Assembly (NCBI GenBank): GCA_031268535.1
Contig: JAIRXB010000014.1
Span: forward strand, 8,108-72,107
DNA from: Puniceicoccales bacterium
Lineage (GTDB): Bacteria; Verrucomicrobiota; Verrucomicrobiia; Opitutales; JAIRLM01
Reading direction: 5' to 3'
Length of the DNA: 64,000 nt
The number at the start of each line of letters is the position of its first letter. Within the stretch, counting starts at the first letter, position 1. Shown here in pieces: positions 10,997 to 38,705 of this stretch. The position numbers and the translations under genes were made by a program. The notes under the pieces were generated by a model. That model searched no databases. It had not been told where the DNA came from and saw only the letters and a program-made list of their open reading frames with translations.

Positions 10997-11000
10997 CGTT

Positions 11001-11040: not shown

Positions 11041-11054
11041 AGGGAATTAAAGAT

Positions 11055-21487: not shown

Positions 21488-22150
21488 GAGCCAGCTGGCC
21501 AGAGGCTGGCGGCGGTTCCATTTCGCCAAACATTTTTAGACGATCATTTCCACTTTTGCCGGCAGTGAGCATCCCGCTAAAATCTTCCAGCGCTTCTGAG
21601 CTTACGCTTCCAAGGAGGGTTGCGCCGTTCTGGTTAGCGGTTGCGCCCGCACTTGCCGATTTGAGGCGTTGCGCCATGTGGATGGCGGCAGTGAGTGCAG
21701 CTTCACTTTTTAGCGCCCTGCTGTGTACTTTGTTGTAGAAGTCGTTTGCGACAGCAAGTTTTCGAAGATCGTCGCCATGACTCGCCGCAAGCTCATTCAA
21801 TTGAGTTTCATCACAGCATTGCACTGCAGCCGCCAATTTGATGGTGTTTTTGGCTAGAGGCAAAAGCTTCCGGCTTCTGGCCAGTCTGGGTGCCAGCGTT
21901 GGCGGCGGCGCAGGCTTGTACGTTTTCTTGGTCGAATGTCGGGCGCGTATGTGATGCAAGTTCTCCTTTCACGAAAGGCGGAATGATTTTGTCTATCTTT
22001 CTAATGGCGTTGTATGCGGCAACTAGCTCAGACAGCCGTTGTCCCGGGCGGTCTTTGCTTTGCTTCGCAGTTTCGAAGGAAACGCCAATTGCAGCTTCAG
22101 CTAGGGGCCAGCTTGCGAGAGGTTGGCGGCGGCTCCATTTGGCGATTGGC
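21480..22150 (-). pseudogene. Degenerate, frame-broken extra copies of the 3'-terminal repeat units of the giant gene
   Basis: Track ORFs 21441..21959 (KLAAAVQCCDETQLNELAASHGDDL...AAIHMAQRLKS...KMFGEMEPP) and 21811..22197 (LSELVAAYNAIRKIDKIIPPFVKGELASH...NVQACAAANA) are homologous to the last about 250 aa of the giant protein (KLAAAVRCCDGTQLNEFAASHGGDL...AAIHMAQCLKT...KMFGEIG; LLELANTYEGIRKTNKAIPPFTEGKLACL...HIQACAAAAP). Shared nucleotide blocks confirm this, for example atgactcgccgcaa(a/g)ctcattcaattgagtt...gcactgcagccgccaatttg at 21777-21840 versus 22775-22845. Confidence 0.75.
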
Positions 22151-25100
22151 CTAGGCTGGTGTGCCTGTACTCTGTTTTGCCCTCCGCCTGGAAGCAAAAC
22201 CTGTCGTCGGCGCGGGTGCGGCGGCAGCGCAAGCTTGTATGTGGTCTGGGTCGCGTTTTGCGATCATCAAGCAGGCAAGTTTTCCTTCCGTGAAAGGCGG
22301 AATGGCTTTGTTTGTCTTTCTAATGCCCTCGTATGTATTGGCTAGCTCAAGTAGCTGTTGTTGCGAACCGCCGCCGATCTGGCTTTCAGTTTGGTAGGCG
22401 ACGCCAATTGCCGCAGCTGCGGCCGGGAGTAGAGTTGAATCAAGTGTCTTAAGGTCGGCAATTGATTTAACGTTGAATATGACTAGCGTATCGGCTACGC
22501 CGATTTCGCCAAACATTTTTAGTCGATCATTTTTAGTGTGGTTGGCAGCTAGTGTCCCACTAAAATCTTTCAGCGCTTCTGATCTTATGCTTTTAAAGAG
22601 GGCAGTACGGTTTTTGGCAGCGTTTTGGTCAGCGATTGCCGTTTTAAGGCATTGCGCCATGTGAATGGCGGCAATGAATGCAACTTCGCTTTTTAGCGTC
22701 CTATCGTGTTTTTTGTCGAAGAAGTCGCTTGCGATCGCAAGTTTGCCTTCTTTGGCAAGGCCTAGAAGATCGCCGCCATGACTCGCCGCAAACTCATTCA
22801 ATTGAGTTCCGTCACAGCATCGCACTGCAGCCGCCAATTTGTCTGGGTCCACAGCTCCTCCTATCGTTATCACGGCGTCGCAGCCCAAAAGTCTAGCAAA
22901 TGGCGTGCTTGCGCAGGCTTGGATTTGGGCGACGGTAATTTCTTCCTGATGACTGTTGGTGCTAAGACTGGCGCGCAGCAGCTCAAGGGAATCTTCGCTG
23001 GCCATTAGCGTTTCCAGTTGCTCACCGACTAAATTGTCCTTGATTCGAGCAAGAATATCGGCAGGGGCGCAATTTTTCAAAACGGCGGCAATGCAATGTA
23101 GAAACACAAATTTCGCGTTTGCCATTTCGGTTTGTTTTCGGCTGCAAGATAAGATGGCGCTTTTGCTGTTTGGGGATCGTTTTTTTAGTGCTTCGGCTTT
23201 TTCGTGTTCCCCGGATGCATCTTTGAAGTTTCTGGCGACAGCTATGAAAAATTGCGGATTCGCCACCGGTATGCTTTTGACTATTGGCGAGCTGCCGCTG
23301 TTTTGCTGCTCGCTTTCAAACCCTTTTCGGATGGCGTCCATCGATTGTGACTTCTGCAATTCAACGTCGCCGCCGACCAAAATGGCGGCAATGATAGACT
23401 GCGGATTCGACAAGTTTTCAAGGTTGCCGTAGTTTTTGGTGAGAAGATGATTTTGTGGATCGCATATGTATAGCGTCACCGGGCTTGTTTCGCTAAGTCC
23501 TTCCAGCACCTTTTTTTCGCCATAGGCAACTATGGCCGCGGCCCTATGTTTGATATCTTCGGTTGTTGCGTTCGGCAAAGTGGATCCGAATGCTGCAACC
23601 GGTAAAAGTTTCAGCATCGATTTTGCGTCTTCATCTTCCGCAACTGTCTTAAACCACGCACCGGGAACGTGCATCCATTGCGATCCGTTCATGAGTGGCC
23701 CCATGAGTAGAATAATGTGGTATGGTATCTGTTTGGCGAAATGCTCGAAAAATCTTGCGACGGAAGCTTGCAAAACTGGACCATCGTAGTTATTGATGAA
23801 TCTGGATTGGGATAAAATATTTCTTTTTGCCACTGCGTCCAAGCACTTCAAAAGCCGCTTTTCCACATCCGGGTCGCCGCTGATCGTTGAGGCCCTAAGC
23901 ATGAGCGATATTATGAGTTTGTTGGTGGTGTTCGAAAGGTTGCCTTCAAGTCTAGTCAACTTCGCCAATGCCGCGTCTCTTTCGCTTCCGGAAGCGGCTT
24001 CGGTGAGTCTTTTGAAACTGACGGCCAATTGCTGTGCCAACTTTTCCGTAACGTCTTCGTTCCATGCTGTGTGGTCGAGGCGATTTAGCTGATCGATGGC
24101 TCCGTTGCGAATCACAGCGTCAGCGAGTTGGACGGCGGTTTCTGCAGCGACACAACTCTGTTCATCTCTGCCGGCCCCAGATGAGGCTGCTTTGGCCGTA
24201 TTGTTTACCTCTTCGACGGGCAGGGCGGTCGTTAAAGCTTGATCTTCCGATACACATTCAATCAAGTATGGTCCGCAGTTACCCAAGAAATCAGCCTCGG
24301 TGGCGTATGCTACGAGTTTCTGCGTTTGGAGTGAACTTTCGTGTTCTTCGCCGGCCGACTGGTCCAGTACGCCCAATTGCTGCCGTATCAATTGCGCCTC
24401 AAGCATGATTTTGGCATAATTTGCTTCTGAATCTGAAGTGTTGATTTCGCGGGCAATTCCGGCCATCCTGTCGCGCATGTCTTTCGTTTTTTTCGATTTC
24501 TTTTCCGCGGATGCCGCAAAAAGATTGGCGATCATCGCTTCCGTTGAAGCGACGATTTGTCCTTTGCAAAAATCTGTGGACATAGCTTCCAGCACGTCAG
24601 CTTTGCTGATGTTTGAAATGGCGCCATTGCCGCAGACCAGCAGCATGGCGACAAGGTCATTGTAGAGAACAGAATCCGACTCTTTTATCTTAGCCAGCAT
24701 GTCGCGGTTCCAGACATCCGGAAATGCTATGGCGCCAGTGGATTGTGAATTTGCCATTTCCACGAAAATATCCGTTGGAACCGTGTGGGGGAATCTGGTG
24801 CTGGCGAATGTGGAAACTAGGTCGTTTCTGAGATGCAATATGGCGCCTGCGAAGAATGCTCCGCTCGTGCGCGATTCAGCGCCAATTGTCAGGCCGCGCC
24901 CTCTGGCATCTAGGTCAATGAGCGTTCTGGCATTATCTCTTATGCGTGTTAGCGCCGCCAGGCTTGGGACAGTGTAAAAAACACTGCGAAGAGCCTCGTC
25001 GCCATCCGCCTCTGCGCCAGCGAGCTGCGCGAGTTGAGAATGGCGGCCTATCCCTAAATTGCGACCTGTCCTGCCACGGCCATTGGCGCGGAGCATACCG

Positions 25101-28100: not shown

Positions 28101-31100
28101 CGTGCTGAGGCCTTTGATTCACATAGCTGTCTGCCGCTCATTTTTGCCAGTAGCTCTACGCTGCCAATAGAAATGAGCCGCTCGAAGAGAGGATTGAGTT
28201 TGGACACTTTCTTAACTTGCTCGGCCTCCAATAGCGAAACTCCATCTGTCGTTGCAAATATTTGACTGAGGGCCTGCTCACCGAATCCCAATGCGCAAAA
28301 TGCCGATGGCGAATACGTGTTAAATAAGCCGCATCTTTTGCCCAAATCGTTTGATTCTGCAGCTGCCGATTCGTAGTACGCATCACCATACTCTCCGCCC
28401 ATTAGGGCGAGGCGAAACAGCTGACTGTCTCCAGTGTCGATTTTAGACTTTGTGCTAGCCACTGACCTTACGCTTTCGAGGATGTATTGCGCGCCAGCTT
28501 GGTCAGATTGCCCGAGAAGTCTGCGTGTCGTGTCCGTCGACCCGGAAAGTGTTGCACACAGAAGAATTTGATAGACAAGATACGATGAGTAGGCGTGCCT
28601 TGTTCTATCTGCGGCTAAAAATTTGTCCAGCTGTAGCGCAGACAGTTTCGCAATGTCTTTAACTGGCACTTCTCCTGGACGAATGCGCTCAAGGGATCCT
28701 ATGGGAATGTGTATGGATTTTGCATCTTCGATTAGGTCGCGCGATATGTCTATGCCAACTTGAAGCAGGATGTCGGACTCAATGGTGCGAAGCGCAGAGA
28801 GTCGCAGCTGAGGGCTTTTTTGCCCGACGACCACCATGCTGTTGTCGAGGCGAGATTCCGGAATGGCGTATATGCATATGCGCAAGAACCTATTCAGCGT
28901 CGGAAGGTCTCCGCCGCAACTCTCAACCAAGGCTGCGAAGGCTGATCGTTGTGACGTTACGGCATTGGCGTCGCCGTCCATCATGGCGCGCAGAAGGCGA
29001 AGGTGGCTCACCGCCGCATCGTAGCGCTTAATGTCCCCTTTAATGTACGGATCAAAGCCACGAGACCGCTCTATGCAGGATCCAGTCGAGGCATCCACGA
29101 TGGCAAGCCCGGCAATTTTGTTTGCATCGGCCTTGATGGCCGCAACCAATGCGGCGGCCTCTTCTTCCGTCGCCAAAACGATCGTGAAATCATCTCCGGT
29201 TTGGTTTTTATAGATAAATGCGTAGCGCGGTTTAGGCTGGCTGTCGTGGACTATTGGAATTGCATTCGCGAATGAGGCGCCAAAGTTAATTGAAACGCGA
29301 ACATTTGGGCCAAAAATATTTTCGTAAGTTAGATATCGATCTGCGCACGCTAGGCCATCCGCTTTCCATGGTATTTCGCCGGCCGATTTGCGCATGAATT
29401 GTGCCGCAGGCAAGCTGGACTGCACCATAGTTTGGGGGCAATTTTTGGCGCCACCAAAAATTGCAAGCTGCGTTCTCCCGCCGTGGCCGCGCGTCGGATT
29501 AGTGTATTTATTCTCAAATACAGTATATGCCCGAACGCCACTATCGCACGTGCTCCAATAATTGCAGAGGGGGAGTTTTCTGCCGGGGCTCATGGCGTTG
29601 CACTCGTTGTACTCCTGCTGTTCTTCGGCCTGCGCTTGGTGCTCCTTTTCCGTCTCAACTTCCACTTCTACCGTATTATTTTCCGCTGCCTCTTCTGCGC
29701 CAGATGACGATTGCTTGCTGCTGATTACTATTTGCCCAAGCGGTTCCTTTTGAATGTCGCCATCTTCGCAATTGACTTTCATCGGATGCCCGTCTGGATC
29801 GGTTCCGATTTTCACGCCCTCTGCTGAGGCGCAAATATCTAGAAGTCCTCTGCATTCCCTGTCGAAAAATTCCATTACTTCAAGTCCGAGCGGTGTTTCA
29901 TTTTGCTGTGCTTCGCGTAGGGCGGCTAAAACTTGCGCTCTCATCGAGCTGGCCGTTGCGAGGGCGGCATCCGTTAGCGATATTTCCACTTTGCTTCCGA
30001 GGTAGACTTGCTCCGGGATGAAATCATTTGAGTTGCTCAGAAATTTAGACAGCGCGCAAACTACTGGCCGCAGCGATTCCATTGCACTGCTAACCTGTTC
30101 TCCTGACGCGCCAGAGCATCTGGCGAATGCATCGACTGTTTTGCCGACAACCCAATTGCCGACGCACCTGCCAATTTCAGATAGAGCTGCCATCATGGTT
30201 TGCTTTTTGGCCACTTCCACGTCATTATGCTGCAGCGTAGCAAGCAGCACTTCGCCGTTGGCGAACTCTTCGTCCATTATGGAATATCGGGCTGATTGTG
30301 ATGATGCGGCGGAGTACCGGCTGAGGACGCTGTCAGGTATGCCGCGTTCATTTCTGCCTGACCAAACTGCACGCTGAAGCAGCGTATCTGGCATGGCGAC
30401 AATTGTGTATTGCGACAGAGGTGCGTCCGTTGGAGCCATGAGTGCTCGTGCGCGCATGGCTGTTTGGAAGAAAATATCTTCTGTTGTCCCGGCAAGATGC
30501 GGGATGTTGACCAGTATGCCTTTGTGCGGCATCGGCACGTCTAGGCCGGTGCACATGGCTTGGCTTGTTGCCCAAATTGTGTTTGATGGCTTAATGCCAA
30601 ATCGTTCAAGCACCGCCATGCCGCTGCCTTCAAATACTATGCCGTCCGTGGCGCCAGGCGTCAGCATGCGGCGATTCCCGTCGCGATCTTCGTAGGCAAC
30701 GCTTACCTGGCGGCCATTATTTGAGAACCACTCCTGCGTGTAGCGTGCAGCCCAATATCCTGGGTCGGGTTCGAGATTGCCGGCGATTCGCGCGTTGTTT
30801 GCCGCCATCTGATAGAAAACTCCACCGGGGTCGCATATGGCGCATATCCTGTCGATGGCGTCACGGTTGGAGACATGCGTTTGGTTGGGCCTGGCATTCG
30901 TTACGGAATCGAGAAAGGCTCCTATGTCATGTTGGCAGTCGACGCAGCGTATGGCGAGAAGTTTTTTCCCAATTTGTTTGCCGCCGCTGCCAGTTACGTC
31001 ACTCTCTCCTCTAGATATGGAGCGCAAGTCGTGAATGTGTTTGGGGATATCTGGGAATTTTCTGCTGAATTGCTGAGGCCACTTATGGGCTACTCCAGGG

Positions 31101-34100
31101 GTGCCGGTGAAGGCGGTTATTTCCCTGAAGAACCTAAGGGCGGCCGTTGAGCGCGTTTCCCTCATGACCGTTGGGGGCCTCACTTCATTGTCGATGAAGT
31201 TGCGCATGAGCTTAATCGCTTTGCCAGGGTTCGCCCTAAAGTACCTGCAGCAATTTACGAAGAGAAGATCCGGCTGTGTTTTGGCCATGTGCAGATATTT
31301 GGGCAGCATTGTGCGGCCGTCTTCTGCATCTGCATTTCCGCCAGAAAATGCTTCGGCGAATAATAGACCCGCTGGCGTTTTGTCGATGGACACGATTGAG
31401 CTATCTCTGGCCATTTGCAGCGCGGCACTGCGAAGCGTGCCATCAATGTACTTATTCCAAACGGCTCGCGGCATGCCGGCATTTGCCACAAACTGAAAGT
31501 GCAGCGGAATTGACGTGCCAAGGTGTGCAAATTGGGCATTAGTGGGAGTTCCCTCCTTGTAAACGCGCAGCGCAGCCCCGCTGCTTCCGTCGCCATAGGC
31601 GACGCCAGCCGTTTTTTCCAGGCAGCGCGGCAGCTCCGTTGACAGCAATCCGCGCACCAGCGCTAACTCTTTAAATAGCGGCACGAGACTGGTGCCTCCA
31701 GAAAGGGCGCGATCGAACACCCGGTCGAGGATGAGACTTCTTGCAGCCGCGGTACCGTCGTAAAGGCGCTGCGCAGCTTCGAAGAAGCCTGCTTCGTCCG
31801 CTGCGCCATTCAATTCAGCGGCGACGCCTTCATCCGAGGCGTAACTTGGCTTTGTGAGGTACCCTACAAGATCTTTAACGCAGAATTGCAGATTACAACC
31901 TTCCTTGCCAAATGCGAATTCAAATTGCAAATCACCTACATCGGCAGTTGGATTGCCATCAACATATCTTACGCCGCAGCCAATTGTGCTGAATGTTTGC
32001 GTGCTAAAAAGATAGGCAATTATGTGTCGCGCAACTGCTGGGGCGACATCGCTATCGTATTCGGACGCGCTCATTGCCGCCTGGCCATTAGTCGATAGCC
32101 GTGCGGCAGTCCTGGCCGCAGCCAGGCCGCTGGCTCCAGATGCCCAGGTTAGCGGCGGTTGTCTGGTGTCCTTTGCCCATTTGCTGTCATGGCCGCGGGT
32201 GTACTTTTGGAGGCTGACCTCCTGTTTGACTTGGGTGTCATCTTCTTCAACCAGTGCGTAATAGGTCTGCTCGACAACGTCGAAAATTCTGTCGTCGACG
32301 TGTTTGTCGGCGTTGCTTTGGTCCGTTGTGATTAGCGAGCGCATTGGGTCAAAGACCTTGTGGGCCTCGTCCACGAGGAGTCGGCTACGTTCCTTAAACG
32401 TAGACAAAATGCGCGACAAAAGGTGAAGTCTCTCCATCATGTCACTGGGTGAGCCGTCATCCATCGTCGATGACTGTAGCCCTTCCGCGCCAGTAAAAAC
32501 TTGCTCCGAGAGAATGGTGGTCTCCATAACCATTCGGTTCATCATGCAGTCATCGATGACAATAACCTTGCCGCCATCGGCGCCGGCCACCCTAATTTCT
32601 TCCCAAATTCTCCTTAATGCGTCAATGTCTTTGGTGAATGTTGAAAGCCAGTCGGCTTTGGTGGTGCTGCCGGCGACAGCCCCAAGGTAGACCACTGACA
32701 TAGACTGTCCGAAAGTTCCCATTAGGTCTGCCGCCATTGAGGCGGCCATGCTCGAAGGCGCTATGCAGACAGGTATATAGCCTTGAGCGTCAAACACCAT
32801 GCAGCCGATTGGCATCATGACTTTTGTTTTGCCACCACCCATAACCGTTGGCACGATACTTCCTTCTGCGGCGCCGCCGAGCCTAGCTCTTTCAGTAGAG
32901 CTAGTGACGCTGGTGATGGAGTTTACGAATCGCAGCAATTGCTCTCGCCGCAAAACGATGCCCTCCATGGCCTCCCAGGCCAGCGCAACGATATGGAGTG
33001 TCGCTTGGCCGGGATCCCAGAATTCGGCTTCATCGGCTTCCTCGATTGGCGGTTTTGCGCCGCTTGCCGCGGTCTTCAAAAAGTTATATCTGCACAGAAG
33101 GCTCGCATATTTTACCGTCAGATCGAAAATCGTTTCAGCATCGGGGGGGTTGGTGAGTTCCGAATTAAGAGCGCGCAGTCGAGTCATGAAGCGCGCTACG
33201 TTGCATTTGTCTGCGTCATCTTTTTTCTGCCCAACCAGAAGGAGCAACGGTACGGCGTCGCTCGCCTTGAGGCCTCTGTTAGCTATTCTGCCGTTAAGCG
33301 CTTTTTCGAGTCCATCCTTTGCTTGAGTGAGGTCTCTAGTTGTCTGATGCAAATGCGCCTTCGCAAGTGCTGCTGAGTTTGCGTTTCGCAGCACATCCAG
33401 CTGAAATTGTCTGTGAACCTTCAGCATTGCGCCGATATCTTGCGCTCTTCTTCCGATGGAAGAGGTTACTGATGCAGGTTCCTGCACAGGTTCTTCGGCT
33501 TTGGCAATTTTGACGGCGGATGTGGCAACTGAAGTCAGCGCAGTCTTCCATCTGGCGGCGGCGGCTTTCATGGATTTGTCGCTCTCCTTTTGGAGCCAGG
33601 CTTTAGTTTTGATCGGAATGGCGTCAGTGAAAAGTTGCATGTAGCGAGTCATTTCGCCGGCGGACAGAACTAGCCTATAGTCCCTATGGGGCCGTGCGGC
33701 ACCGGTACGCGCAGTCTCTTCAGACGTCGCATATTTCGCAAGATAGTTAAGCTCGCTGTTAAATTCTTCGCTGCCCATGGATGCTATATAGTCTGCGCCG
33801 CGGTCACAGTAGCTGCGGAGCTTACACAGCATGCGCAAGTGCGGCTTAGCGCCGCAGTCGGGCAGATTATCGATCGTGCTGATCAGTTCGCCATAGAGCT
33901 CCACTTCGATTTGCGAAAGCGCCGCGCCGGAGTTGGTGCGCGCCTTCCGTATCAGTTCAGCGGCGACGGTTTCTTTTGGTGGAATGTTGCGCAGGGCAAG
34001 CGTGGCCAACGCCAAGTAGCCTGCAGGATTTTCGCTGAAGTAGGTGTCGCCTATGGAGGAGTGGTCTCGCGGGCGGTAGGTTGTCTTGATGACGCTTCCG

Positions 34101-37100
34101 GCAAATTGCTTGCCGATTGGCGGACTCGTGTGCACAAACAGATCGTTTGTGCGCACAAGAAGCTCGTAGCGGCTGCCGTGCGAATCTATGTCCTCCAGCA
34201 CTATGCCTTTTGCGAAAGAAAAGAGCGGGTTTACCGCTTCGGCGACGCCGGTTGCCGGGTTGGTGCGCGCTATGAGTCTAGGGACTACGTGCAGTGACGC
34301 ATGGCGCGTCAGCATTAGCCTTTCAGTGCCGTTGTGCTGTGTCGATTCGAAGTGCAGCGGGGTTTCGTGGTCGTAGCGTAATCCGCTGATTTCGACGGTT
34401 GCAATGCTTTGCGTTTGACCTGACGCCACTAGGTCGGAAACGATATTACGGGCGGAGGCGTCTCTGTTCGCGCGTGTTGCAAAGTTCTCCGAATTGCTGT
34501 TGGTCGCCGTAGTAGTTCCCGTAACTAGGATTGCGTTTGGATCGCCGCCCGTAAATGAGCTGAAATATTCCAATCCAGAGGCTTCGGCCCCAGACGCCCC
34601 AATTGGGCGTGAATTCGCGTAGAGCACGCGCCTTTCATTTGCTCCCCTGCCCTTTCGCAGGTCAAAGATTGCTGCAGCCTCATTGCTGTGAGTTTGCAGT
34701 TCAAAGTCGATGGTTGGGCCTTTGCGGACAGATGCATCACGCCTTGCGAAAAAAACCTTATTCATATGAGCCGACATTATCGATTCGTCCGTTTTTGTCA
34801 CAAACCACATGTCGTATTCGTCGCCCATGAGTGCTTCGGGGACAATTCCGCCGAGGCCACATGCTATGGCTTCTTCGCGATTTCTGATCAACCTTGCCGC
34901 TTTCACGCCGGAGTTGTCAAAAAATAAGTTGCCGCTATTGCCGCACGTTTCGATGTCGATGCTCCACGGTTCGGTGCCGCGGTCAACGCTTACCGTAATG
35001 CCGTCGGATGAATAGCGATCACTCGGGAATCTTACCGCTTGGCCGACGTTCCCGAGGGGCGCAGATTCCCGTCCGAATCGCTCGTAGTAGGCGGCGTCTC
35101 CACCCTTCAGAACCCCAAAGCCGGCCGTCATAAGTTGGTTGCCGCTAAGGAATAATCCAGTTGGCCCAAAGCCTCCGATGTCTTTGAAGCACCTGCGCAG
35201 TCCTCCGCGACTAGGATCGGTTGCGCTGTCAGCCTTTTTTGCGAAGTGTGGGGTATCCCATGGAGATGCTTCCGGGTGGTCCTCCATTTGCGCCTCTCCG
35301 CCTGGGGACGTGTTACTCACAAAGCAGTATCCTCTGCAAACTGCAGTCGCCTTGGTGGCACCTAAATAATCGGCAGTGCCGGCTTCTGACCAGAACAGCT
35401 GCGGATAGCCGGGGTACCTTTGCGGCATTGCGTTTTTTGCGGCAATTGCCATGACGGCTCCAATGGAGGCTCTCGGTTGGCATGATTTACAACATGACGC
35501 AGTCATCTGCATGAGTTTTTCGCCCATGTTAGCCAGCGCAATGGACATTGATGGGCTGACGCGGCGTGGATCTTGCATTCCAAGATAGAAAATGGAAATG
35601 AAAGCATGCTCAAGGGTGCTGACCCAGTAGCCGCCGGTAGTACCGCCTGTGCAACTCCCACATTGGCGAGAGCCCATATCGTGGCCGCTGAAAACTTCCG
35701 GATCAATTACATCTCCTCCCGAATACGTGCAAGGGCAATAAGTTCCATCGCTGTCGCGCATGAAACAAGTATGGTTAAAGCGATAGCCATTACCAAGCGT
35801 GCAACTTTCGCATTTGGCTGCAGCCAACATTATTTTGGGAATTTCGACCGATAGAACTTGGAGCTGCATGCGATACATCGCCAATTGCTGATCAAATGTC
35901 ATCCTAAAGGTTTGGTGCATTGCCTGTGTCGTTCCTGAATCGCTATTGGTGGGCTTCGAGTAAGGTCTGAAGACAATTGTGCTGTCGTCGTGAGTGCCAA
36001 GAATGCCCTGTGACAACATCCTTGGTTCGCCGCTAAAATCTACGTTGGAGCGAAACTTTATGACGTGTCTCCTTCGCATTAGAAAGCTTGTGTTGCACCC
36101 GAGTTCTGCGAGGACTTTCGCAACTTTAACGTTCCAATCCCGATCGTCATAATTGAGCTCCGTTCCGGATTCTTTCGAAGTATAATATACTAGCCCAGGG
36201 AGATTATCTAGGTATGGCGCCTCTATGATGCTGAGCAATTCCGATAGATTGGCCAGCGCCTCATAGTCCGGGCCGCTTTCGCGAATTCTGGGTGGTTTGA
36301 GGTTGCCTTGGAGGATTCCATCAAAAGAAACATCTTGGTATTCGAAGCCAAACTCCCTACATCCGGCGTTCCATAGGCATCTCACAGCCGCCGACATGCC
36401 CTCTAGGTTGTTGTCCCATTCTTCCTTCAGTTTGTTCTTTGCGACCTTTCCGTCGGCGCCAATAATGGTTTCTGAAACTTTCGCTATCGCGGCGTTGAAT
36501 TTGGACGATGTTCGACCTTCGGAATTGAGTGCAAATGCCGACAAATCTTTTTGCATGTCCTGCATTATGCTTATTGCCCCGAGTGTGCGCTTTTGGAAGT
36601 AGCGTGACGGTGGCGAGCAGTTGCTTTCGGCGTAGGATGTTATAAATGGCGTAGGGTATGGGACAGCTCCATTGAAGCGCATCTCCGGAAGCCGCACTAT
36701 CCAGTCGTCGCTGCTGCTCGAAGCAAGGTCAACAAATGTTGCCGATGAAACTGACGGCGACAAAATGGATAGCCGAACAAGTGCTTTGTCGAGTTCGTTA
36801 CTGTTGTCGAAGGAGGTGGACGTATGCAACGGCACAAGGCCTGAGGCTATTATTTCAGCCAACCATTGTGTTTTTTCCGCTTCGCTCCAAGTTGCGGACG
36901 GTATGCCGACGCGCATTTTTCTCGCCAAAGTCGGTTTGGACGCGAACACTTCTAGAATATGTCCGTGCGCTCTCAACATCAATCCGTCGAGCGTCACACC
37001 TCTACCTCTTCCTGCCGGTGGGAGTGTGATTGACGCCTTTCCATTCCTGCTGCGGGTTATTGCGAATCCTGATGCAGCAGTGGTAGCGGTTTTTTCCTCG

Positions 37101-38500
37101 CATGCATTAACTTGATCTGTTAGCTTCTCAACTAGTTTTGTGAATTGAATATCGGAGACGCCCAAATTTCTGCCCGGGCCGAGATGGGCCCGATAGTCTG
37201 AGAAGTCCGGAACAAAATCATCGAAGATGTTTGCGGCCAGCAATTGAAATTTCGTTTTAAACACAGCCGCCTCCTGGGCCGACAGATATTGCTCGACGTA
37301 GCGAAATCCGAAAGATAGGGCCGGCAGTTTGGCTCGCAGAGTATTCATTTTGGAGACTGCTCTTCCACCTGCGTCTATAACTGTGTCAAATTTATTGTAC
37401 GGATCATAGTGTGTGTCAATGGCTTCGGAACAGCCGAAAAGAGCCTGCTTTAGGTATCGCACAAATTCCATTTGCCGTTCTTCTAGCGTAGATTCGTTGG
37501 CGCTGGCCAATTCGTCGCTGCAAAAGTCTGCCAGCACCTCAATCGCTCTTGCGGCATTGGTTTCATCGCCATCAAGCGTGGACCAGAATGGGGGGTCTTT
37601 AGGCTTTAAAACCAAACGGCTGAATTCCCATCCGTTCCCTTGCCAATAATATTTGTGCTGGACGTAACCCGGCGCACAAACCTTGCGGCCGTCTGCTATG
37701 CTGGTGGCGCAGCTGAATGATGTGGCGTCTGCGATTGTTTTTTGTTCGGCCGCGTAGTAGGTCGCAAGTCTCTTGGCGAAAGCGCTTCCCGGCGCGCTTC
37801 CGAGCAGTGCGTTCGCCGCATTCATCACATTTCGGCACTTCGGCGAATCCAAATGTTGGCCCATTCGCCATTTTAGCGCATCGATTTCGCGCAGCAGCAG
37901 TGAAATCGTGTCTCTTCCGACGCGATGATCCCACCCAAGCGTGTTGCAATCCGCAATATTCTTTTCTACGGCGACAGCCAATAGGTCTGTCCACGCCTGA
38001 TTTAGAGTCTGTTTGTGTTGCGCTTTAGTTGCTGTTCCGCCGCGTTGTGCGACGACAACGCCTGCGATAGCATCGAAAAGATCGCCGTCCAATGGGATCT
38101 TGGTGTAATTAAGTCTTACCAAGCAGGCACGATGGATGTGCGATGCGTTTGATAAATCATTTTTCAGCCACACCTCACAGTCTGCGCCGGTATGACGCAC
38201 CATAAGGAAATAGTCACTAATATAAGAATGATCACCCGCGCCGAGGTTAAGATGGTCTAATCTCTCAACATTGCTTACCATGGCGAGCAGTTTGCCAACT
38301 ATTGCGACCGGGTCTTTTGCGTCTGTAGACGGCGGCAGCCGCCGATGCAATTCTTCAATTTCGCCAATCAAACTTTCGACTCCAGACGGACGCGCGCCTA
38401 CTGCGCCGCCGGCATTGACGGCCCTCGAAAGTTCTCCGAGGACGTTTGGCAGCGCGTTCGGATTGGCCAAATAATCTTGCGGCTTGGCGCCGATGTTCAT
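22151..38500 (-). CDS. Giant multidomain protein (5449 aa) of unknown function, with a P-loop NTPase-like module (GGGKT Walker A ... VIVIDD ... LLVDEAH), a Cys-rich module and a C-terminal repeat array
   Basis: Single uninterrupted 16.35-kb ORF in the track. There is no N-terminal signal peptide or transmembrane segment (MNIGAKPQDYLANPNALPN...). Motifs visible are IVPTVMGGGKTKVMMPIGCMVF, GKVIVIDDCMMN and ERSRLLVDEAHKVFD. The Cys cluster is CESCTLGNGYRFNHTCF...CPCTYSGG...CGSCTGG...CCKSCQP. C-terminal repeats of about 110-130 aa show KLAAAVRCCDGTQLNEF, FIAAIHMAQCLK and KMFGEIG. Confidence 0.9.
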   Translation of the reverse strand: MNIGAKPQDYLANPNALPNVLGELSRAVNAGGAVGARPSGVESLIGEIEELHRRLPPSTDAKDPVAIVGKLLAMVSNVERLDHLNLGAGDHSYISDYFLMVRHTGADCEVWLKNDLSNASHIHRACLVRLNYTKIPLDGDLFDAIAGVVVAQRGGTATKAQHKQTLNQAWTDLLAVAVEKNIADCNTLGWDHRVGRDTISLLLREIDALKWRMGQHLDSPKCRNVMNAANALLGSAPGSAFAKRLATYYAAEQKTIADATSFSCATSIADGRKVCAPGYVQHKYYWQGNGWEFSRLVLKPKDPPFWSTLDGDETNAARAIEVLADFCSDELASANESTLEERQMEFVRYLKQALFGCSEAIDTHYDPYNKFDTVIDAGGRAVSKMNTLRAKLPALSFGFRYVEQYLSAQEAAVFKTKFQLLAANIFDDFVPDFSDYRAHLGPGRNLGVSDIQFTKLVEKLTDQVNACEEKTATTAASGFAITRSRNGKASITLPPAGRGRGVTLDGLMLRAHGHILEVFASKPTLARKMRVGIPSATWSEAEKTQWLAEIIASGLVPLHTSTSFDNSNELDKALVRLSILSPSVSSATFVDLASSSSDDWIVRLPEMRFNGAVPYPTPFITSYAESNCSPPSRYFQKRTLGAISIMQDMQKDLSAFALNSEGRTSSKFNAAIAKVSETIIGADGKVAKNKLKEEWDNNLEGMSAAVRCLWNAGCREFGFEYQDVSFDGILQGNLKPPRIRESGPDYEALANLSELLSIIEAPYLDNLPGLVYYTSKESGTELNYDDRDWNVKVAKVLAELGCNTSFLMRRRHVIKFRSNVDFSGEPRMLSQGILGTHDDSTIVFRPYSKPTNSDSGTTQAMHQTFRMTFDQQLAMYRMQLQVLSVEIPKIMLAAAKCESCTLGNGYRFNHTCFMRDSDGTYCPCTYSGGDVIDPEVFSGHDMGSRQCGSCTGGTTGGYWVSTLEHAFISIFYLGMQDPRRVSPSMSIALANMGEKLMQMTASCCKSCQPRASIGAVMAIAAKNAMPQRYPGYPQLFWSEAGTADYLGATKATAVCRGYCFVSNTSPGGEAQMEDHPEASPWDTPHFAKKADSATDPSRGGLRRCFKDIGGFGPTGLFLSGNQLMTAGFGVLKGGDAAYYERFGRESAPLGNVGQAVRFPSDRYSSDGITVSVDRGTEPWSIDIETCGNSGNLFFDNSGVKAARLIRNREEAIACGLGGIVPEALMGDEYDMWFVTKTDESIMSAHMNKVFFARRDASVRKGPTIDFELQTHSNEAAAIFDLRKGRGANERRVLYANSRPIGASGAEASGLEYFSSFTGGDPNAILVTGTTTATNSNSENFATRANRDASARNIVSDLVASGQTQSIATVEISGLRYDHETPLHFESTQHNGTERLMLTRHASLHVVPRLIARTNPATGVAEAVNPLFSFAKGIVLEDIDSHGSRYELLVRTNDLFVHTSPPIGKQFAGSVIKTTYRPRDHSSIGDTYFSENPAGYLALATLALRNIPPKETVAAELIRKARTNSGAALSQIEVELYGELISTIDNLPDCGAKPHLRMLCKLRSYCDRGADYIASMGSEEFNSELNYLAKYATSEETARTGAARPHRDYRLVLSAGEMTRYMQLFTDAIPIKTKAWLQKESDKSMKAAAARWKTALTSVATSAVKIAKAEEPVQEPASVTSSIGRRAQDIGAMLKVHRQFQLDVLRNANSAALAKAHLHQTTRDLTQAKDGLEKALNGRIANRGLKASDAVPLLLLVGQKKDDADKCNVARFMTRLRALNSELTNPPDAETIFDLTVKYASLLCRYNFLKTAASGAKPPIEEADEAEFWDPGQATLHIVALAWEAMEGIVLRREQLLRFVNSITSVTSSTERARLGGAAEGSIVPTVMGGGKTKVMMPIGCMVFDAQGYIPVCIAPSSMAASMAADLMGTFGQSMSVVYLGAVAGSTTKADWLSTFTKDIDALRRIWEEIRVAGADGGKVIVIDDCMMNRMVMETTILSEQVFTGAEGLQSSTMDDGSPSDMMERLHLLSRILSTFKERSRLLVDEAHKVFDPMRSLITTDQSNADKHVDDRIFDVVEQTYYALVEEDDTQVKQEVSLQKYTRGHDSKWAKDTRQPPLTWASGASGLAAARTAARLSTNGQAAMSASEYDSDVAPAVARHIIAYLFSTQTFSTIGCGVRYVDGNPTADVGDLQFEFAFGKEGCNLQFCVKDLVGYLTKPSYASDEGVAAELNGAADEAGFFEAAQRLYDGTAAARSLILDRVFDRALSGGTSLVPLFKELALVRGLLSTELPRCLEKTAGVAYGDGSSGAALRVYKEGTPTNAQFAHLGTSIPLHFQFVANAGMPRAVWNKYIDGTLRSAALQMARDSSIVSIDKTPAGLLFAEAFSGGNADAEDGRTMLPKYLHMAKTQPDLLFVNCCRYFRANPGKAIKLMRNFIDNEVRPPTVMRETRSTAALRFFREITAFTGTPGVAHKWPQQFSRKFPDIPKHIHDLRSISRGESDVTGSGGKQIGKKLLAIRCVDCQHDIGAFLDSVTNARPNQTHVSNRDAIDRICAICDPGGVFYQMAANNARIAGNLEPDPGYWAARYTQEWFSNNGRQVSVAYEDRDGNRRMLTPGATDGIVFEGSGMAVLERFGIKPSNTIWATSQAMCTGLDVPMPHKGILVNIPHLAGTTEDIFFQTAMRARALMAPTDAPLSQYTIVAMPDTLLQRAVWSGRNERGIPDSVLSRYSAASSQSARYSIMDEEFANGEVLLATLQHNDVEVAKKQTMMAALSEIGRCVGNWVVGKTVDAFARCSGASGEQVSSAMESLRPVVCALSKFLSNSNDFIPEQVYLGSKVEISLTDAALATASSMRAQVLAALREAQQNETPLGLEVMEFFDRECRGLLDICASAEGVKIGTDPDGHPMKVNCEDGDIQKEPLGQIVISSKQSSSGAEEAAENNTVEVEVETEKEHQAQAEEQQEYNECNAMSPGRKLPLCNYWSTCDSGVRAYTVFENKYTNPTRGHGGRTQLAIFGGAKNCPQTMVQSSLPAAQFMRKSAGEIPWKADGLACADRYLTYENIFGPNVRVSINFGASFANAIPIVHDSQPKPRYAFIYKNQTGDDFTIVLATEEEAAALVAAIKADANKIAGLAIVDASTGSCIERSRGFDPYIKGDIKRYDAAVSHLRLLRAMMDGDANAVTSQRSAFAALVESCGGDLPTLNRFLRICIYAIPESRLDNSMVVVGQKSPQLRLSALRTIESDILLQVGIDISRDLIEDAKSIHIPIGSLERIRPGEVPVKDIAKLSALQLDKFLAADRTRHAYSSYLVYQILLCATLSGSTDTTRRLLGQSDQAGAQYILESVRSVASTKSKIDTGDSQLFRLALMGGEYGDAYYESAAAESNDLGKRCGLFNTYSPSAFCALGFGEQALSQIFATTDGVSLLEAEQVKKVSKLNPLFERLISIGSVELLAKMSGRQLCESKASARLRARPGESDGESMLDEVAAKLLECDANGVPNQESEAALVDILSFCVPNSPWIAAIAKSVSSERLQRISNNQLIRHMFRFPEFIAAFKGAPDVVGRLTDEFTPLLTESDVERLKWATVEAFPVELRRLLCPWQIIRIHETTGTALSEILLPGRLQDFDELIDLEKSCKDGGRIEQGFVKLLMAIVRGDGAPAITVDDITDKQIELLMRHSLAVDVRKCDVDCDDVIPQPRMPSEAVDGGGEKVAAKPAEFIADGSPLHVMLSTRLSKERIARISSDECVSTVYALLANAKNNAAIGQKQAAILSRDMVRKSPGKAEMAQALDEIGSATLSNAVIARIKSRSSALSACLRGAEGVVSEKDGESFLAEHLAANLAFVIAIDDKFGDSADIACVAVLANMHKTFGYGPDTDKFSDSGFSTSKLWQAVWDAALTQVAHAYAANAKGTSFTGALNAAKTAKTSGTPSAAGWLACMESDAAFVLTYADFLLLSQRMPRALARLRERDIESISKSLKGADVAQIIRLGSCDAISALNETHLRGFMLTAGAQNLIQKIDLETLAQIKPEASILEEIVRHGSTQQVASMTVSQLLSVGIGAWRDRNVERKDEECVTPIFEKLKAEIASLVERGRGAKQDCSELRTRMAVIARTIAGVGGNAKLQGLIDKLVAKGTNSKDLLTNLLADKDWHQLDTYGQLDAFRLFALMIPGKTLEKRRKAISDSIAAAKAKVGDIRPKGIIDNARVLLSSENSNVAKLFGVAKIVDDAAKPHVVRWIAAFDFDDQNSPVRKSMRDTGATTWPPELKLIEQVLLVELTECCVGNLENDVFAKALPTMTAVAKAIVGSLTAVDASNAKQATGAARLVIKRAVDEIESATHDSVYAIDQIQHLADTVCGNTASDANIARKSLLDASRGGKVDTTDRRKILAAAGTQWFNLSEKSLEVRSEIEKNTSPITDRFNDLVTDLVRKCKAESSLAIMECTFITPNHGDDVAMAAEIKKAYLDGAINLNGMLRANGRGRTGRNLGIGRHSQLAQLAGAEADGDEALRSVFYTVPSLAALTRIRDNARTLIDLDARGRGLTIGAESRTSGAFFAGAILHLRNDLVSTFASTRFPHTVPTDIFVEMANSQSTGAIAFPDVWNRDMLAKIKESDSVLYNDLVAMLLVCGNGAISNISKADVLEAMSTDFCKGQIVASTEAMIANLFAASAEKKSKKTKDMRDRMAGIAREINTSDSEANYAKIMLEAQLIRQQLGVLDQSAGEEHESSLQTQKLVAYATEADFLGNCGPYLIECVSEDQALTTALPVEEVNNTAKAASSGAGRDEQSCVAAETAVQLADAVIRNGAIDQLNRLDHTAWNEDVTEKLAQQLAVSFKRLTEAASGSERDAALAKLTRLEGNLSNTTNKLIISLMLRASTISGDPDVEKRLLKCLDAVAKRNILSQSRFINNYDGPVLQASVARFFEHFAKQIPYHIILLMGPLMNGSQWMHVPGAWFKTVAEDEDAKSMLKLLPVAAFGSTLPNATTEDIKHRAAAIVAYGEKKVLEGLSETSPVTLYICDPQNHLLTKNYGNLENLSNPQSIIAAILVGGDVELQKSQSMDAIRKGFESEQQNSGSSPIVKSIPVANPQFFIAVARNFKDASGEHEKAEALKKRSPNSKSAILSCSRKQTEMANAKFVFLHCIAAVLKNCAPADILARIKDNLVGEQLETLMASEDSLELLRASLSTNSHQEEITVAQIQACASTPFARLLGCDAVITIGGAVDPDKLAAAVRCCDGTQLNEFAASHGGDLLGLAKEGKLAIASDFFDKKHDRTLKSEVAFIAAIHMAQCLKTAIADQNAAKNRTALFKSIRSEALKDFSGTLAANHTKNDRLKMFGEIGVADTLVIFNVKSIADLKTLDSTLLPAAAAAIGVAYQTESQIGGGSQQQLLELANTYEGIRKTNKAIPPFTEGKLACLMIAKRDPDHIQACAAAAPAPTTGFASRRRAKQSTGTPA

Positions 38501-38705
38501 GGGGCCAAATGTATGCCATTAATTTCGCAACAAGTCAAGAAACCGGATGCAGGAATATGGATTTTTGTTTGGCGGTCCGGCGCTAAATATTTGGCTCCCA
38601 TTGAAAAATTGCTCCGCCAAAGCTTGATGTTTCAAACACCGACTCCATTCCGTCGTTCGCCAAGCATTTGATATTAAATCATTTACGCCATTCCGGCTTC
38701 CACCA

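What the first reader, a model, noticed from the sequence alone, without database searches (positions are those of the whole stretch)
22151..38500. 16.35-kb single ORF encoding a 5449-aa cytoplasmic-type giant protein with a P-loop NTPase-like core and a Cys-rich module
This is one uninterrupted reading frame covering a quarter of the window. It has no signal peptide, transmembrane segment or lipobox at the N-terminus, so it is not an obvious adhesin or RTX-type giant. Residues about 2040-2200 carry a Walker-A-like GGGKT (IVPTVMGGGKTKVMMPIGCMVF). They also carry an aspartate-rich VIVIDD segment and a DExH-like box (RLLVDEAHKVFD), but no recognisable helicase motifs III-VI. This pattern is reminiscent of the DUF3638-type NTPase found in giant eukaryotic and some bacterial proteins. 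That resemblance is my recollection and is not a search result. A Cys cluster precedes it (C-x2-C ... CPC ... CGSC ... CCKSC) and could bind metal. The C-terminal approximately 400 aa is a tandem array of repeats of about 110-130 aa. Divergent transcription from the GT4 gene leaves an intergenic region of about 200-280 bp, and there is no Shine-Dalgarno sequence before the ATG.
Basis: partly seen in the sequence, partly recalled or inferred. Interest (0 to 1): 0.8.

Follow-up and report, generated by a model that had tools for sequence, protein, structure and literature searches.

The report
Giant DUF3638-type motor ATPase gene
The 16-kb reading frame is a real gene of a termite-gut verrucomicrobial bacterium, and it encodes a 5,449-residue soluble protein built around a helicase-like ATP motor of a little-studied family otherwise seen in eukaryotes and in bacteria that live inside protists; what the motor acts on is unknown.

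Summary
The ORF (22151-38500, minus strand, 5449 aa) is real. It is deposited as a hypothetical protein of a Puniceicoccales MAG. A second 5518-aa copy in the same MAG is collinear with it, and partial orthologues occur in other termite-gut MAGs.

The family is very rare: 12 hits among 1.84 billion representative proteins.

Residues ~1840-3136 form a divergent DUF3638-type module. It is a complete SF2-like two-RecA motor with five invariant motifs:
- Walker A (K1891)
- DEAH (2044-2047)
- TGTP (T2467)
- TGxD (G2652)
- QxxxRxR (2679-2685)

The protein scores below Pfam's DUF3638 threshold (16 bits, cut-off 31). A profile-profile comparison nevertheless links it (probability 99.9 %, E 7e-38) to 3000-4000-aa proteins of Legionella, Coxiellaceae, Francisellaceae and Chlamydiae. 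Those proteins pass the threshold (60-114 bits).

Three of its other points are not:
- Motifs III-VI are present, not absent.
- The Cys cluster is mostly unconserved.
- There is no C-terminal repeat array.

A degenerate copy of the gene's own 3' end lies just past the stop codon.

Function is inferred, not shown. My best guess is an ATP-driven remodelling motor with solenoid arms, used in symbiont-host interaction.

The parts
22151..38500 (-). Whole ORF, 5449 codons plus stop. Identical to deposited protein MDR1436040.1 (locus tag LBI39_02435, Puniceicoccales bacterium MAG).
38501..38705 (.). 205-bp divergent intergenic region between the giant gene and the GT4 glycosyltransferase gene (38706-40034, +). 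No SD-like motif before the ATG. A TTGACT hexamer lies about 33 nt upstream (seen by eye, not tested).
35201..38500 (-). N-terminal region, aa 1-1100. No known domain. aa 1-~320 have no counterpart even in the paralogue. aa ~320-1100 are shared only with P0013 and P0005.
35471..35812 (-). Cys-containing segment, aa 897-1010. Only CCxxC (aa 1003-1007) is conserved in relatives.
33101..35203 (-). Pre-motor region, aa 1100-1800. Conserved in P0013, P0005 and P0014, and partly in the most divergent members P0006 and P0009. No known domain.
29093..32983 (-). DUF3638-type SF2-like ATPase module, aa 1840-3136. This is the only part shared with the Legionella, Chlamydiae and Francisellaceae giant proteins.
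32819..32842 (-). Walker A / motif I, MGGGKTKV (aa 1887-1894). G1888, G1890 and K1891 are invariant.
32345..32380 (-). Walker B / motif II, LLVDEAHKVFDP (aa 2041-2052). D2044, E2045, A2046, D2051 and P2052 are invariant.
31151..32323 (-). Insertion of about 400 aa (aa ~2060-2450) between motifs II and III. The model shows mixed beta hairpins and a helical bundle. It contains the conserved LVRGxLSxELPxCLxKTxGVxYG segment.
31094..31114 (-). Motif III equivalent, AFTGTPG (aa 2463-2469). T2467 is invariant.
30527..30553 (-). Motif V equivalent, CTGLDVPMP (aa 2650-2658). G2652 is invariant.
30440..30472 (-). Motif VI equivalent, FFQTAMRARAL (aa 2677-2687). Q2679, R2683 and R2685 are invariant (candidate arginine fingers).
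29609..29674 (-). Conserved acidic segment TVEVEVETEKEHQAQAEEQQEY (aa 2943-2964). Present in all family members and aligned to an acidic stretch of the Legionella/Chlamydiae group. Low model confidence.
29051..29548 (-). [not shown]
22154..29053 (-). [not shown]
21519..22110 (-). Degenerate, permuted copy of the gene's own 3' end, just past the stop codon. 22110->21829 (frame -2) resembles aa 5358-5446 (41 % identity). 21839->21519 (frame -3, inside the mechanical ORF 21441-21959) resembles aa 5221-5333 (61 % identity; 77 % DNA identity over 339 nt).

Best explanation
SHOWN
- The ORF is a genuine, selectively maintained gene of a termite-gut Puniceicoccales (Verrucomicrobiota) bacterium.
- Its product is a soluble 5,449-aa protein. 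The centre (aa ~1840-3136) is a highly divergent member of the DUF3638-type ATPase module.
- That module has RecA-like domain 1 with Walker A (K1891) and a DEAH box (2044-2047). A ~400-aa insertion domain follows, then motif III (TGTP).
- RecA-like domain 2 carries motif V (TGLD) and motif VI (Q2679, R2683, R2685). After it come long helices, a conserved acidic VEVEVE segment and a small alpha/beta domain.
- The motor is flanked by ~1800 N-terminal residues that are specific to this lineage.
- On the C-terminal side are ~2300 residues. The modelled part of these (to aa 3800) is helical and armadillo-like.

INFERRED
- The conserved motif set implies that the protein binds and hydrolyses ATP at the cleft between the two RecA domains. 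It would convert this into movement on a polymeric or macromolecular substrate, as SF2 translocases do. The solenoid arms would serve as binding platforms for partners.
- Bona fide DUF3638 giants turned up only in lineages known for life inside eukaryotic cells: Legionella, Coxiellaceae, Francisellaceae, Parachlamydiaceae and other Chlamydiae. One of them carries ankyrin repeats, and several have C-terminal tail anchors.
- The close relatives for which a host is recorded come from lower termites, whose guts are full of flagellates with verrucomicrobial endosymbionts.
- From this I infer that the protein most likely acts at the symbiont-host interface, as a eukaryote-like remodelling machine, rather than in core bacterial housekeeping. 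The substrate (nucleic acid or protein) and the site of action are not known.
For: REAL GENE
- ORF and composition. No repeats.
- Deposited identical protein, and a paralogue in the same MAG.
- 29 % identity over 5271 aligned positions with the paralogue, plus orthologues on independent contigs.

RARITY
- 12 hits at E<=1e-3 in 1.84 billion representatives.

MOTOR
- Invariant motif I, II, III, V and VI residues in 7 sequences down to 18 % identity.
- AF2 model of aa 1801-2760 has pLDDT 63 overall and 80-90 in RecA1.

DUF3638 LINK
- 7 of 7 cores hit PF12340, best E 1.1e-7.
- The hmmsearch of the family profile hits RecA1, the insertion and RecA2 in the distant bacterial giants.
- hhalign gives probability 99.9 %, E 6.7e-38, with motifs in register.
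- The distant giants score 60-114 bits against a cut-off of 31.

PHYLETIC PATTERN AND ECOLOGY
- The genome scan returned Puniceicoccales termite MAGs, Parachlamydiaceae (4 contigs), Chlamydiae, Chlamydiales, Legionella feeleii, Coxiellaceae and Francisellaceae.
- Ankyrin repeats in the Chlamydiae member.
- C-terminal hydrophobic anchors in 5 relatives.
- The MAG series is from termite guts, with Ct408 and Nm470 from Kalotermitidae (lower termites). That paper describes putatively endosymbiotic Opitutales, including the endonuclear Ca. Nucleococcus.

C-TERMINAL SOLENOID
-.
Against: - No experiment or expression data exist. ATPase activity, substrate and localisation are all inferred.
- The protein itself scores below Pfam's DUF3638 threshold (16 bits), and no DUF3645 hit was found.
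- No secretion signal can be recognised, and a 5,449-aa protein is an improbable cargo for known secretion systems.
- The window protein lacks both the tail anchor and the ankyrin repeats seen in some relatives.
- Its neighbours are ordinary housekeeping genes, and the context is not conserved among homologues.
- The genome scan relied on two exact peptide patterns, so the taxonomic list is incomplete and could be skewed.
- The lifestyle of this particular MAG is unknown.
- Both AF2 models are of moderate confidence (pTM 0.47-0.51) and rest on shallow alignments of 7-8 sequences.
Confidence: 0.6

Rival explanations
1. It is an intracellular conflict or defence sensor. On this view a giant RIG-I- or HamB-like SF2 ATPase works inside the bacterium against phages or mobile elements. 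The fast-evolving C-terminal half would be the recognition part.
For: - There are two diverged paralogues per genome, and several in one Parachlamydiaceae MAG.
- Conservation falls to 14-27 % in the C-terminal 1600 aa.
- A displaced, diverged copy of the 3' end lies downstream, which suggests C-terminal turnover.
Against: - PADLOC gives only a 35-residue DEAH-box match (E 0.01).
- No nuclease or other effector domain was found.
- The gene does not sit in a defence-island-like neighbourhood.
- No relatives were found on phages, plasmids or viral contigs.
- The taxonomic range is restricted to intracellular lineages rather than spread across bacteria.
Confidence: 0.2
2. It is a polypeptide- or membrane-directed motor. 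On this view a SecA-like DEAD motor is built into a giant scaffold that remodels or translocates proteins at a membrane. It would not be a nucleic-acid enzyme.
For: - Five relatives end in tail-anchor-like hydrophobic segments.
- Long ARM-like solenoids are typical protein-binding platforms.
Against: - The SecA scores are barely above those of dozens of nucleic-acid helicases.
- No SecA-specific domain or Pfam hit was found.
- The window protein itself has no hydrophobic anchor.
Confidence: 0.12
3. It is an artefact or a dead gene: a misassembled, chimeric or non-functional reading frame.
For: - The source is a metagenome-assembled genome.
- GC3 (0.545) is somewhat below that of the housekeeping neighbours (0.57-0.74).
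- A broken duplicate of the 3' end lies downstream.
Against: - A 16.3-kb open frame at about 52 % GC cannot arise by chance.
- There are no repeats to collapse.
- The frame is collinear over the full length with a paralogue and with orthologues from other termite species.
- Catalytic motifs are invariant.
- The downstream copy is only 77 % and 69 % identical in its two DNA segments, which is far too diverged for an assembly duplication.
Confidence: 0.03
4. It is a surface adhesin, an RTX-type protein, or an NRPS/PKS megasynthase. These are the usual classes of bacterial proteins above 5000 aa.
For: - Size alone. The literature assigns most bacterial proteins above 5000 aa to NRPS/PKS or surface proteins, with the PVC superphylum enriched (PMC11573180).
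Against: - No signal peptide or transmembrane segment.
- No Ig-like, cadherin, RTX or other repeats.
- No condensation, adenylation, KS or AT domains in Pfam or NCBIfam.
Confidence: 0.02

Closest known systems
Pfam PF12340 (DUF3638) giant proteins: eukaryotic proteins of unknown function, plus the 3000-4000-aa bacterial members found here in Legionella feeleii, Coxiellaceae, Francisellaceae and Chlamydiae
   Same: - The ~1000-1300-aa motor module is homologous (hhalign 99.9 %). It has the same MGGGKTKV, DEAHK, TGTP, TGxD and QxxMRxR motifs, the same large insertion between motifs II and III, and the same acidic stretch and small domain after RecA2.
- In each case the motor sits about 1750-2000 residues from the N-terminus of a giant protein.
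- Several genomes carry multiple paralogues.
   Different: - The window protein and its ~10 relatives fall below the Pfam gathering score (16 bits against 31) and share only about 14 % identity with the other bacterial members.
- The N-terminal 1800 aa and C-terminal 2300 aa have no detectable counterpart outside the Puniceicoccales group.
- It is 1.5-2 kb of protein longer.
- It has no ankyrin repeats and no tail anchor.
- DUF3645 was not detected.
- The literature describes DUF3638 as eukaryotic and of undefined mechanism (PMC12615304).
Superfamily 2 helicases and translocases (RIG-I-like, Hef/FANCM, Rad54/Snf2, UvrB, DinG, Mfd) and the SecA DEAD motor
   Same: - Motifs I, II (DEAH), III, V and VI are conserved, with arginines in motif VI.
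   Different: - No helicase Pfam family is matched. This covers DEAD, Helicase_C, ResIII and SNF2, apart from a ResIII hit at E 0.006 in one relative.
- Foldseek finds nothing significant.
- There is a ~400-aa insertion between motifs II and III.
- Nucleic-acid-contact motifs Ia, Ib and IV cannot be assigned with confidence.
- The motor is embedded in a 5.4-kaa protein.
Known classes of giant bacterial proteins (NRPS/PKS, adhesins/RTX, Omnitrophota giant genes)
   Same: - Size above 5000 aa.
- It occurs in the PVC superphylum, which is enriched for such proteins (PMC11573180).
   Different: - It has no secretion signal, no repeats, and no synthetase or adhesin domains.
- It is built around an ATPase motor.
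Orphan C-terminal cassettes downstream of polymorphic-toxin genes (CdiA/Rhs). This resemblance is recalled from memory, not tested.
   Same: A promoterless, start-less, diverged copy of the 3' end of a very long gene lies immediately downstream on the same strand.
   Different: - The fragment is homologous to the resident C-terminus rather than being an alternative toxin.
- It is permuted and frame-shifted.
- No immunity gene is present.
- No toxin domain or secretion signal was found.

Membership tests
Pfam DUF3638 (PF12340) | Scores at or above the curated gathering threshold (31 bits) | tested here: not met
   16.2 bits, E 0.007, covering only profile positions 41-96. The best family member reaches E 1.1e-7.
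Pfam DUF3638 (PF12340) | Demonstrable homology to proteins that do pass the threshold | tested here: met
   hhalign of the Puniceicoccales profile against the Legionella/Chlamydiae/Francisellaceae group gives probability 99.9 %, E 6.7e-38, over 946 columns. All six of those proteins tested score 60-114 bits.
Pfam DUF3638 (PF12340) | P-loop GxGK[TS] followed by a DE-type Walker B within one RecA-like domain | tested here: met
   G1888, G1890, K1891 and D2044, E2045, A2046 are invariant. RecA1 is modelled with pLDDT 80-90.
Pfam DUF3638 (PF12340) | Accompanied by DUF3645 (PF12359). This association is recalled from the Pfam description. | tested here: not met
   No DUF3645 hit at E<=1 in the window protein, nor at the E limits used (0.01-1) in any relative scanned.
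Superfamily 2 helicase/translocase | Two tandem RecA-like domains | tested here: met
   [not shown]
Superfamily 2 helicase/translocase | Conserved motifs I, II, III, V and VI | tested here: met
   K1891, DEAH 2044-2047, T2467, G2652 and Q2679/R2683/R2685 are invariant in 7 sequences. They align to the same motifs in the Legionella group.
Superfamily 2 helicase/translocase | Nucleic-acid-binding motifs Ia, Ib and IV, and nucleic-acid-stimulated ATPase activity | tested here: inconclusive
   A VPxSQ-like segment after strand 2 and the VIVIDD strand sit where motifs Ia and Ib would be, but they are not invariant. Biochemistry is not testable here.
Superfamily 2 helicase/translocase | Match to a curated helicase family model (DEAD, Helicase_C, ResIII, SNF2_N and similar) | tested here: not met
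   None for the window protein. ResIII at E 0.006 in one relative only. No PDB sequence match.
Known anti-phage defence helicases (PADLOC: Hachiman HamB, Zorya ZorD, etc.) | Match to a defence-system protein model, with partner genes nearby | tested here: not met
   Only a 35-residue DEAH-box match to HamB, E 0.011. The neighbours are housekeeping genes.
Giant surface adhesins / RTX proteins | Signal peptide or secretion signal, with tandem Ig-like, cadherin or RTX repeats | tested here: not met
   No hydrophobic N-terminus. No DNA or protein repeats. No such Pfam domains.
NRPS/PKS megasynthases | Condensation, adenylation, carrier, KS or AT domains | tested here: not met
   No Pfam or NCBIfam hits.

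The most novel reading that the evidence does not exclude
DUF3638-type giants may be an unrecognised class of helicase-like molecular machines shared by eukaryotes and by bacteria that live inside protists (Legionellales, Francisellaceae, Chlamydiae and, newly, termite-gut Verrucomicrobia). The bacterial versions would be host-directed or membrane-anchored remodelling motors, obtained through exchange between the domains of life. The Puniceicoccales branch would have expanded the protein to about 5,400 aa, duplicated it, and diversified its C-terminal solenoid through cassette-like replacement of the 3' end. The orphan fragment at 21519-22110 would be the footprint of that replacement.
Probability: 0.2. 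Interest if true: 0.8.

Novelty: new variant of a known kind. Interest (0 to 1): 0.6.

Why it matters
- DUF3638 is a widespread eukaryotic domain with no assigned mechanism. [quoted passage not shown]
- This work places a 5,449-aa verrucomicrobial protein, and a set of 3000-4000-aa proteins from Legionella, Coxiellaceae, Francisellaceae and Chlamydiae, in the same superfamily.
- It also shows that the module is a complete SF2-type motor rather than a bare P-loop. That gives the family a testable biochemical hypothesis, and it offers bacterial versions to work with, including one in a cultured species (Legionella feeleii strain WO-44C).
- For symbiosis biology, it flags a candidate host-interaction machine in termite-gut Verrucomicrobia. 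The endosymbionts of that group, including intranuclear ones, have almost no characterised effectors.
- It also adds a third kind of bacterial protein above 5000 aa, beside megasynthases and adhesins.

Tried and rejected
- The search for homologous proteins was used three times: on the core, on the core alignment, and on the core of a bona fide DUF3638 relative. Each time 8000 word-sharing candidates were collected and none scored, even though the protein itself is in that collection. The tool was uninformative here.
- The exact-sequence look-up of the neighbouring GT4 gene found nothing.
- NCBIfam gave nothing.
- PDB sequence searches with single sequences and with the core profile gave nothing significant.
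- Foldseek against the PDB gave no hit at E<=0.001. The AFDB library was not available, so eukaryotic DUF3638 models could not be compared.
- Plasmid, phage and viral-contig searches found no relatives. The metagenome scan added one distant locus only.
- I recalled that DUF3638 giants were linked to the VTD deubiquitinase family. The paper ties VTD domains to Helitron transposons and never mentions DUF3638, so I dropped this. A second recollection, that eukaryotic members carry an OTU-like domain, could not be tested and is not used.
- The metal-binding Cys module was rejected on conservation.
- C-terminal tandem repeats were rejected.
- The downstream 172-aa ORF as a conserved partner gene was rejected. 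It is a fragment of the giant gene itself, and nothing similar follows three homologues.
- Synteny: the flanking genes are not shared with the homologous loci examined.
Full report
**1. The observation**

The window holds a single open frame at 22151..38500 on the minus strand: ATG start, 5449 codons. No 19-residue window reaches a Kyte-Doolittle mean of 1.6 (maximum 1.48). There is therefore neither a signal-peptide-like N-terminus nor a membrane segment. GC by codon position is coding-like in every 500-codon block, and relative codon usage correlates 0.79 with the housekeeping neighbours. GC3 (0.545) is a little lower than theirs.

Tandem Repeats Finder and the repeat finder report only trivial matches of 30 nt or less inside the gene. 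Repeat collapse is therefore not an issue.

MGGGKTKV is at aa 1887-1894, VIVIDD at 1979-1984 and the DEAH box at 2044-2047.

The gap to the divergent GT4 gene is 205 bp. No Shine-Dalgarno-like motif precedes the ATG, but none precedes 12 of the 16 genes checked in the window either. That point says nothing about this gene in particular.

**2. Source and relatives**

An exhaustive HMMER search with aa 1701-2900 against 1.84 billion representative proteins returned only 12 proteins at E<=1e-3. The first is the protein itself. It is deposited as MDR1436040.1, a hypothetical protein with locus tag LBI39_02435, from a 'Puniceicoccales bacterium' MAG.

The same MAG has a second copy on another contig (LBI39_01410, 5518 aa). 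It aligns collinearly over 5271 positions at 29 % identity. The other relatives are fragments or full genes of 1300-7000 aa. Most come from other Puniceicoccales MAGs with neighbouring locus-tag prefixes. The rest are from a JGI metagenome and a Logan assembly.

One relative lies on contig JAITBQ010000118. Two others are from isolates Ct408_bin89 and Nm470_bin13. These belong to the termite-gut MAG series of Mies et al. 2024 (accessions JAIRJQ-JAITXW, PRJNA732531). Ct408 is Calcaritermes temnocephalus and Nm470 is Neotermes meruensis, both lower termites of the family Kalotermitidae. That paper also notes putatively endosymbiotic Opitutales in termite guts, including the endonuclear Ca. Nucleococcus of a flagellate.

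The window itself is ordinary bacterial chromosome. It carries an M20 peptidase, enolase, SfsA, MgtE, an RNase J-like enzyme and a prepilin peptidase. It also carries GT4, MutL, an ABC transporter, MurG, a MurC-MurB fusion, Ddl and FtsQ. The remaining genes are GAPDH, GlmS, a Band 7 protein, an NtrC-type regulator, CTP synthase and three tRNAs. Homologues sit in unrelated housekeeping contexts. The gene is therefore a stand-alone unit.

**3. The core is a complete SF2-type motor**

Seven cores, down to 18 % identity, were aligned. The invariant residues are:
- G1888, G1890 and K1891 (Walker A)
- D2044, E2045 and A2046, plus D2051 and P2052 (DEAHKxFDP)
- T2467 (FTGTPG, motif III)
- G2652 (TGxD, motif V)
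- Q2679, R2683 and R2685 (QxxMRxR, motif VI)

VIVIDD lies on the strand where SF2 motif Ib usually sits, and it is not conserved in divergent members.

An AlphaFold2 model of aa 1801-2760, built from this 7-sequence alignment, has mean pLDDT 63 (80-90 in RecA1) and pTM 0.51. Foldseek against the PDB found nothing significant. Its best hits were DinG and the reverse-gyrase helicase domain.

- UvrB, DinG, HamB and ZorD

Between motifs II and III lies an insertion of about 400 aa containing a strongly conserved LVRGxLSxELPxCLxKTxGVxYG segment.

**4. The DUF3638 link**

In 900-aa tiles, Pfam gives only one hit for the window protein: DUF3638 at 16 bits (E 0.007, gathering score 31), over the Walker A region. 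All seven family cores hit the same model, the best at E 1.1e-7.

A pattern-plus-tblastn scan of one genome per GTDB species recovered two Puniceicoccales termite MAGs and twelve distant loci. The distant loci are:
- four contigs of one Parachlamydiaceae MAG
- a Chlamydiae MAG and a Chlamydiales MAG
- Legionella feeleii WO-44C
- a Coxiellaceae MAG
- a Francisellaceae MAG
- a Gammaproteobacteria MAG
- two unclassified bins

In each, the match lies in a giant frame of 3000 to more than 4150 aa. Six of these were scanned, and all score far above the DUF3638 threshold: 82, 65, 100, 95, 114 and 60 bits. The Chlamydiae protein also has N-terminal ankyrin repeats.

A profile of the Puniceicoccales family hits RecA1, the insertion and RecA2 in these proteins. 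Profile-profile alignment gives probability 99.9 %, E 6.7e-38, over 946 columns spanning aa 1840-3136. Every motif is in register, and so are an acidic stretch and a small domain after RecA2. Nothing outside that span is shared.

The window protein is thus a very divergent member of the DUF3638 superfamily. It fails the Pfam cut-off but passes a transitive homology test. DUF3645 was never detected.

**5. The flanks**

N-terminal side:
- aa 1-320 are unique, and aa 320-1100 are shared only with the closest relatives.
- aa 1100-1800 are well conserved, and part of this stretch is recognisable even in the most divergent members.
- No Pfam, NCBIfam or PDB sequence match exists.
The CESC, CPC and CGSC positions are substituted or deleted in the paralogue and in P0005.

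C-terminal side:
- A model of aa 2740-3800 (8 sequences, pLDDT 71.5) shows long helices and a low-confidence acidic VEVEVETEKE segment that is conserved in all members.
- It also shows a confident alpha/beta domain (aa ~2985-3150, motif IPIxH...RYA), followed by helical repeats.
- Identity to relatives falls to 14-27 % beyond aa 3800.
- Fragment BLASTP and profile self-comparison find no significant internal repeats. The best signal has P 0.002 and probability 13 %, and there is nothing in the last 550 aa.

**6. An unexpected feature just outside the ORF**

On the same strand, 40 nt after the stop codon, lies a diverged copy of the gene's own 3' end. Positions 22110->21829 (frame -2) encode a 41 %-identical copy of aa 5358-5446. 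Positions 21839->21519 (frame -3) encode a 61 %-identical copy of aa 5221-5333, with 77 % DNA identity over 339 nt.

The two pieces are in the opposite order to the gene and in different frames. The second piece accounts for the mechanical 172-aa ORF at 21441-21959. This is too diverged to be an assembly artefact. It looks like a remnant of a 3'-end duplication or replacement. Nothing comparable follows three homologues.

**7. How it most likely works**

Shown: a conserved, complete set of ATP-binding and hydrolysis motifs in an SF2 fold, with large helical arms.

Inferred: ATP hydrolysis at the cleft between the RecA domains drives translocation or remodelling of a bound macromolecule, and the solenoid and N-terminal regions hold partners.

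The substrate is open. Nucleic acid is the default for SF2 proteins. The marginally best structural match is SecA, and five relatives carry C-terminal tail-anchor-like hydrophobic segments. These are P0006, P0007, P0009, the Chlamydiales protein and one unclassified bin. A protein- or membrane-directed role therefore stays possible. The window protein has no such anchor.

The biological role is inferred from distribution. Every classified carrier outside the termite MAGs belongs to a lineage known for intracellular life in protists or animals. The recorded hosts of the termite MAGs are flagellate-bearing lower termites.

I therefore favour a host-interface role (about 0.35-0.4). An intrabacterial defence or conflict role comes next (about 0.2), then a SecA-like protein or membrane motor (about 0.1). 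The identity of the module as a real gene and a DUF3638-type SF2 ATPase I hold at about 0.9. The overall confidence of 0.6 blends these.

Caveats:
- The genome scan used two exact peptide patterns, so the taxon list is incomplete.
- No secretion signal can be recognised.
- The lifestyle of this MAG is not documented.

**8. Comparison and novelty**

The protein works like an SF2 translocase. It is a remote member of the DUF3638 superfamily, whose mechanism is undefined in the searchable literature. It is not a member of any curated helicase family, of any PADLOC defence family, or of the usual giant-protein classes.

The protein is in public databases only as 'hypothetical protein'. I rate it a new variant of a known kind, for three reasons:
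- a sub-threshold, lineage-specific branch with unique ~1800-aa and ~2300-aa flanks
- a first link of Verrucomicrobia to a family otherwise seen in eukaryotes and intracellular bacteria
- the recognition that the module is a full two-RecA motor

Interest is 0.6. The find is unusual and rare, and it gives a DUF a testable mechanism, but its function here remains inferential.

Noticed in passing
window 21519-22110 (- strand), overlapping mechanical ORF 21441-21959: A diverged, permuted and frame-shifted copy of the giant gene's last ~230 codons lies 40 nt past its stop codon. The copy of aa 5358-5446 is 41 % identical, and the copy of aa 5221-5333 is 61 % identical (77 % DNA identity). It looks like a remnant of 3'-end duplication or replacement.
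   Followed up: partly
window 5090-14276 (+ strand): Five tandem paralogous ORFs of 499-550 aa share 24-36 % pairwise identity. They have no Pfam domain. The four for which GC3 was computed have clearly lower values (0.43-0.51) than the housekeeping neighbours (0.57-0.74). This is a lineage-specific expanded gene family of unknown function next to enolase.
   Followed up: partly
window 45772-47943 (+ strand): A single 723-aa ORF combines an N-terminal Mur ligase (MurC-like) domain with C-terminal MurB domains (FAD_binding_4 and MurB_C). It sits within a MurG / MurC-MurB / Ddl / FtsQ cluster. As far as I recall, such a fusion has been described in Verrucomicrobia.
   Followed up: no
P0006 aa 4049-4098 of 4182; P0007 aa 2668-2693 of 2737; P0009 aa 6939-6991 of 7021; L015 ORF aa 2341-2369 of 2385; L017 ORF aa 3485-3507 of 3548: Five divergent relatives of the giant protein end in strongly hydrophobic, tail-anchor-like segments. 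Two of these are long or multi-helix. The window protein and its closest relatives lack them.
   Followed up: partly
P0009 (7021 aa, JGI metagenome), C-terminal ~2500 aa: This relative carries several tandem repeats of about 400 aa (recurring ...LPLLSxEQLHxLTxxQVxNL...FLNEGxVDEIAKL... units) before its membrane anchor. This is a different C-terminal elaboration of the same motor family.
   Followed up: no
L006, L009, L010, L011 (four contigs of Parachlamydiaceae MAG bog_1457): One Parachlamydiaceae genome carries at least four separate DUF3638-type cores. Multi-copy expansion therefore occurs outside Puniceicoccales as well.
   Followed up: no
window 58890-62657 (- strand): Three consecutive ORFs (393, 372 and 456 aa) have no Pfam match at E<=1e-4. 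They lie between tRNA-Val and tRNA-Met.
   Followed up: no
tool behaviour: The word-indexed protein search returned no hits for three queries, although the query protein itself is a cluster representative in that collection. Negative results from that tool should not be read as absence for this family.
   Followed up: yes
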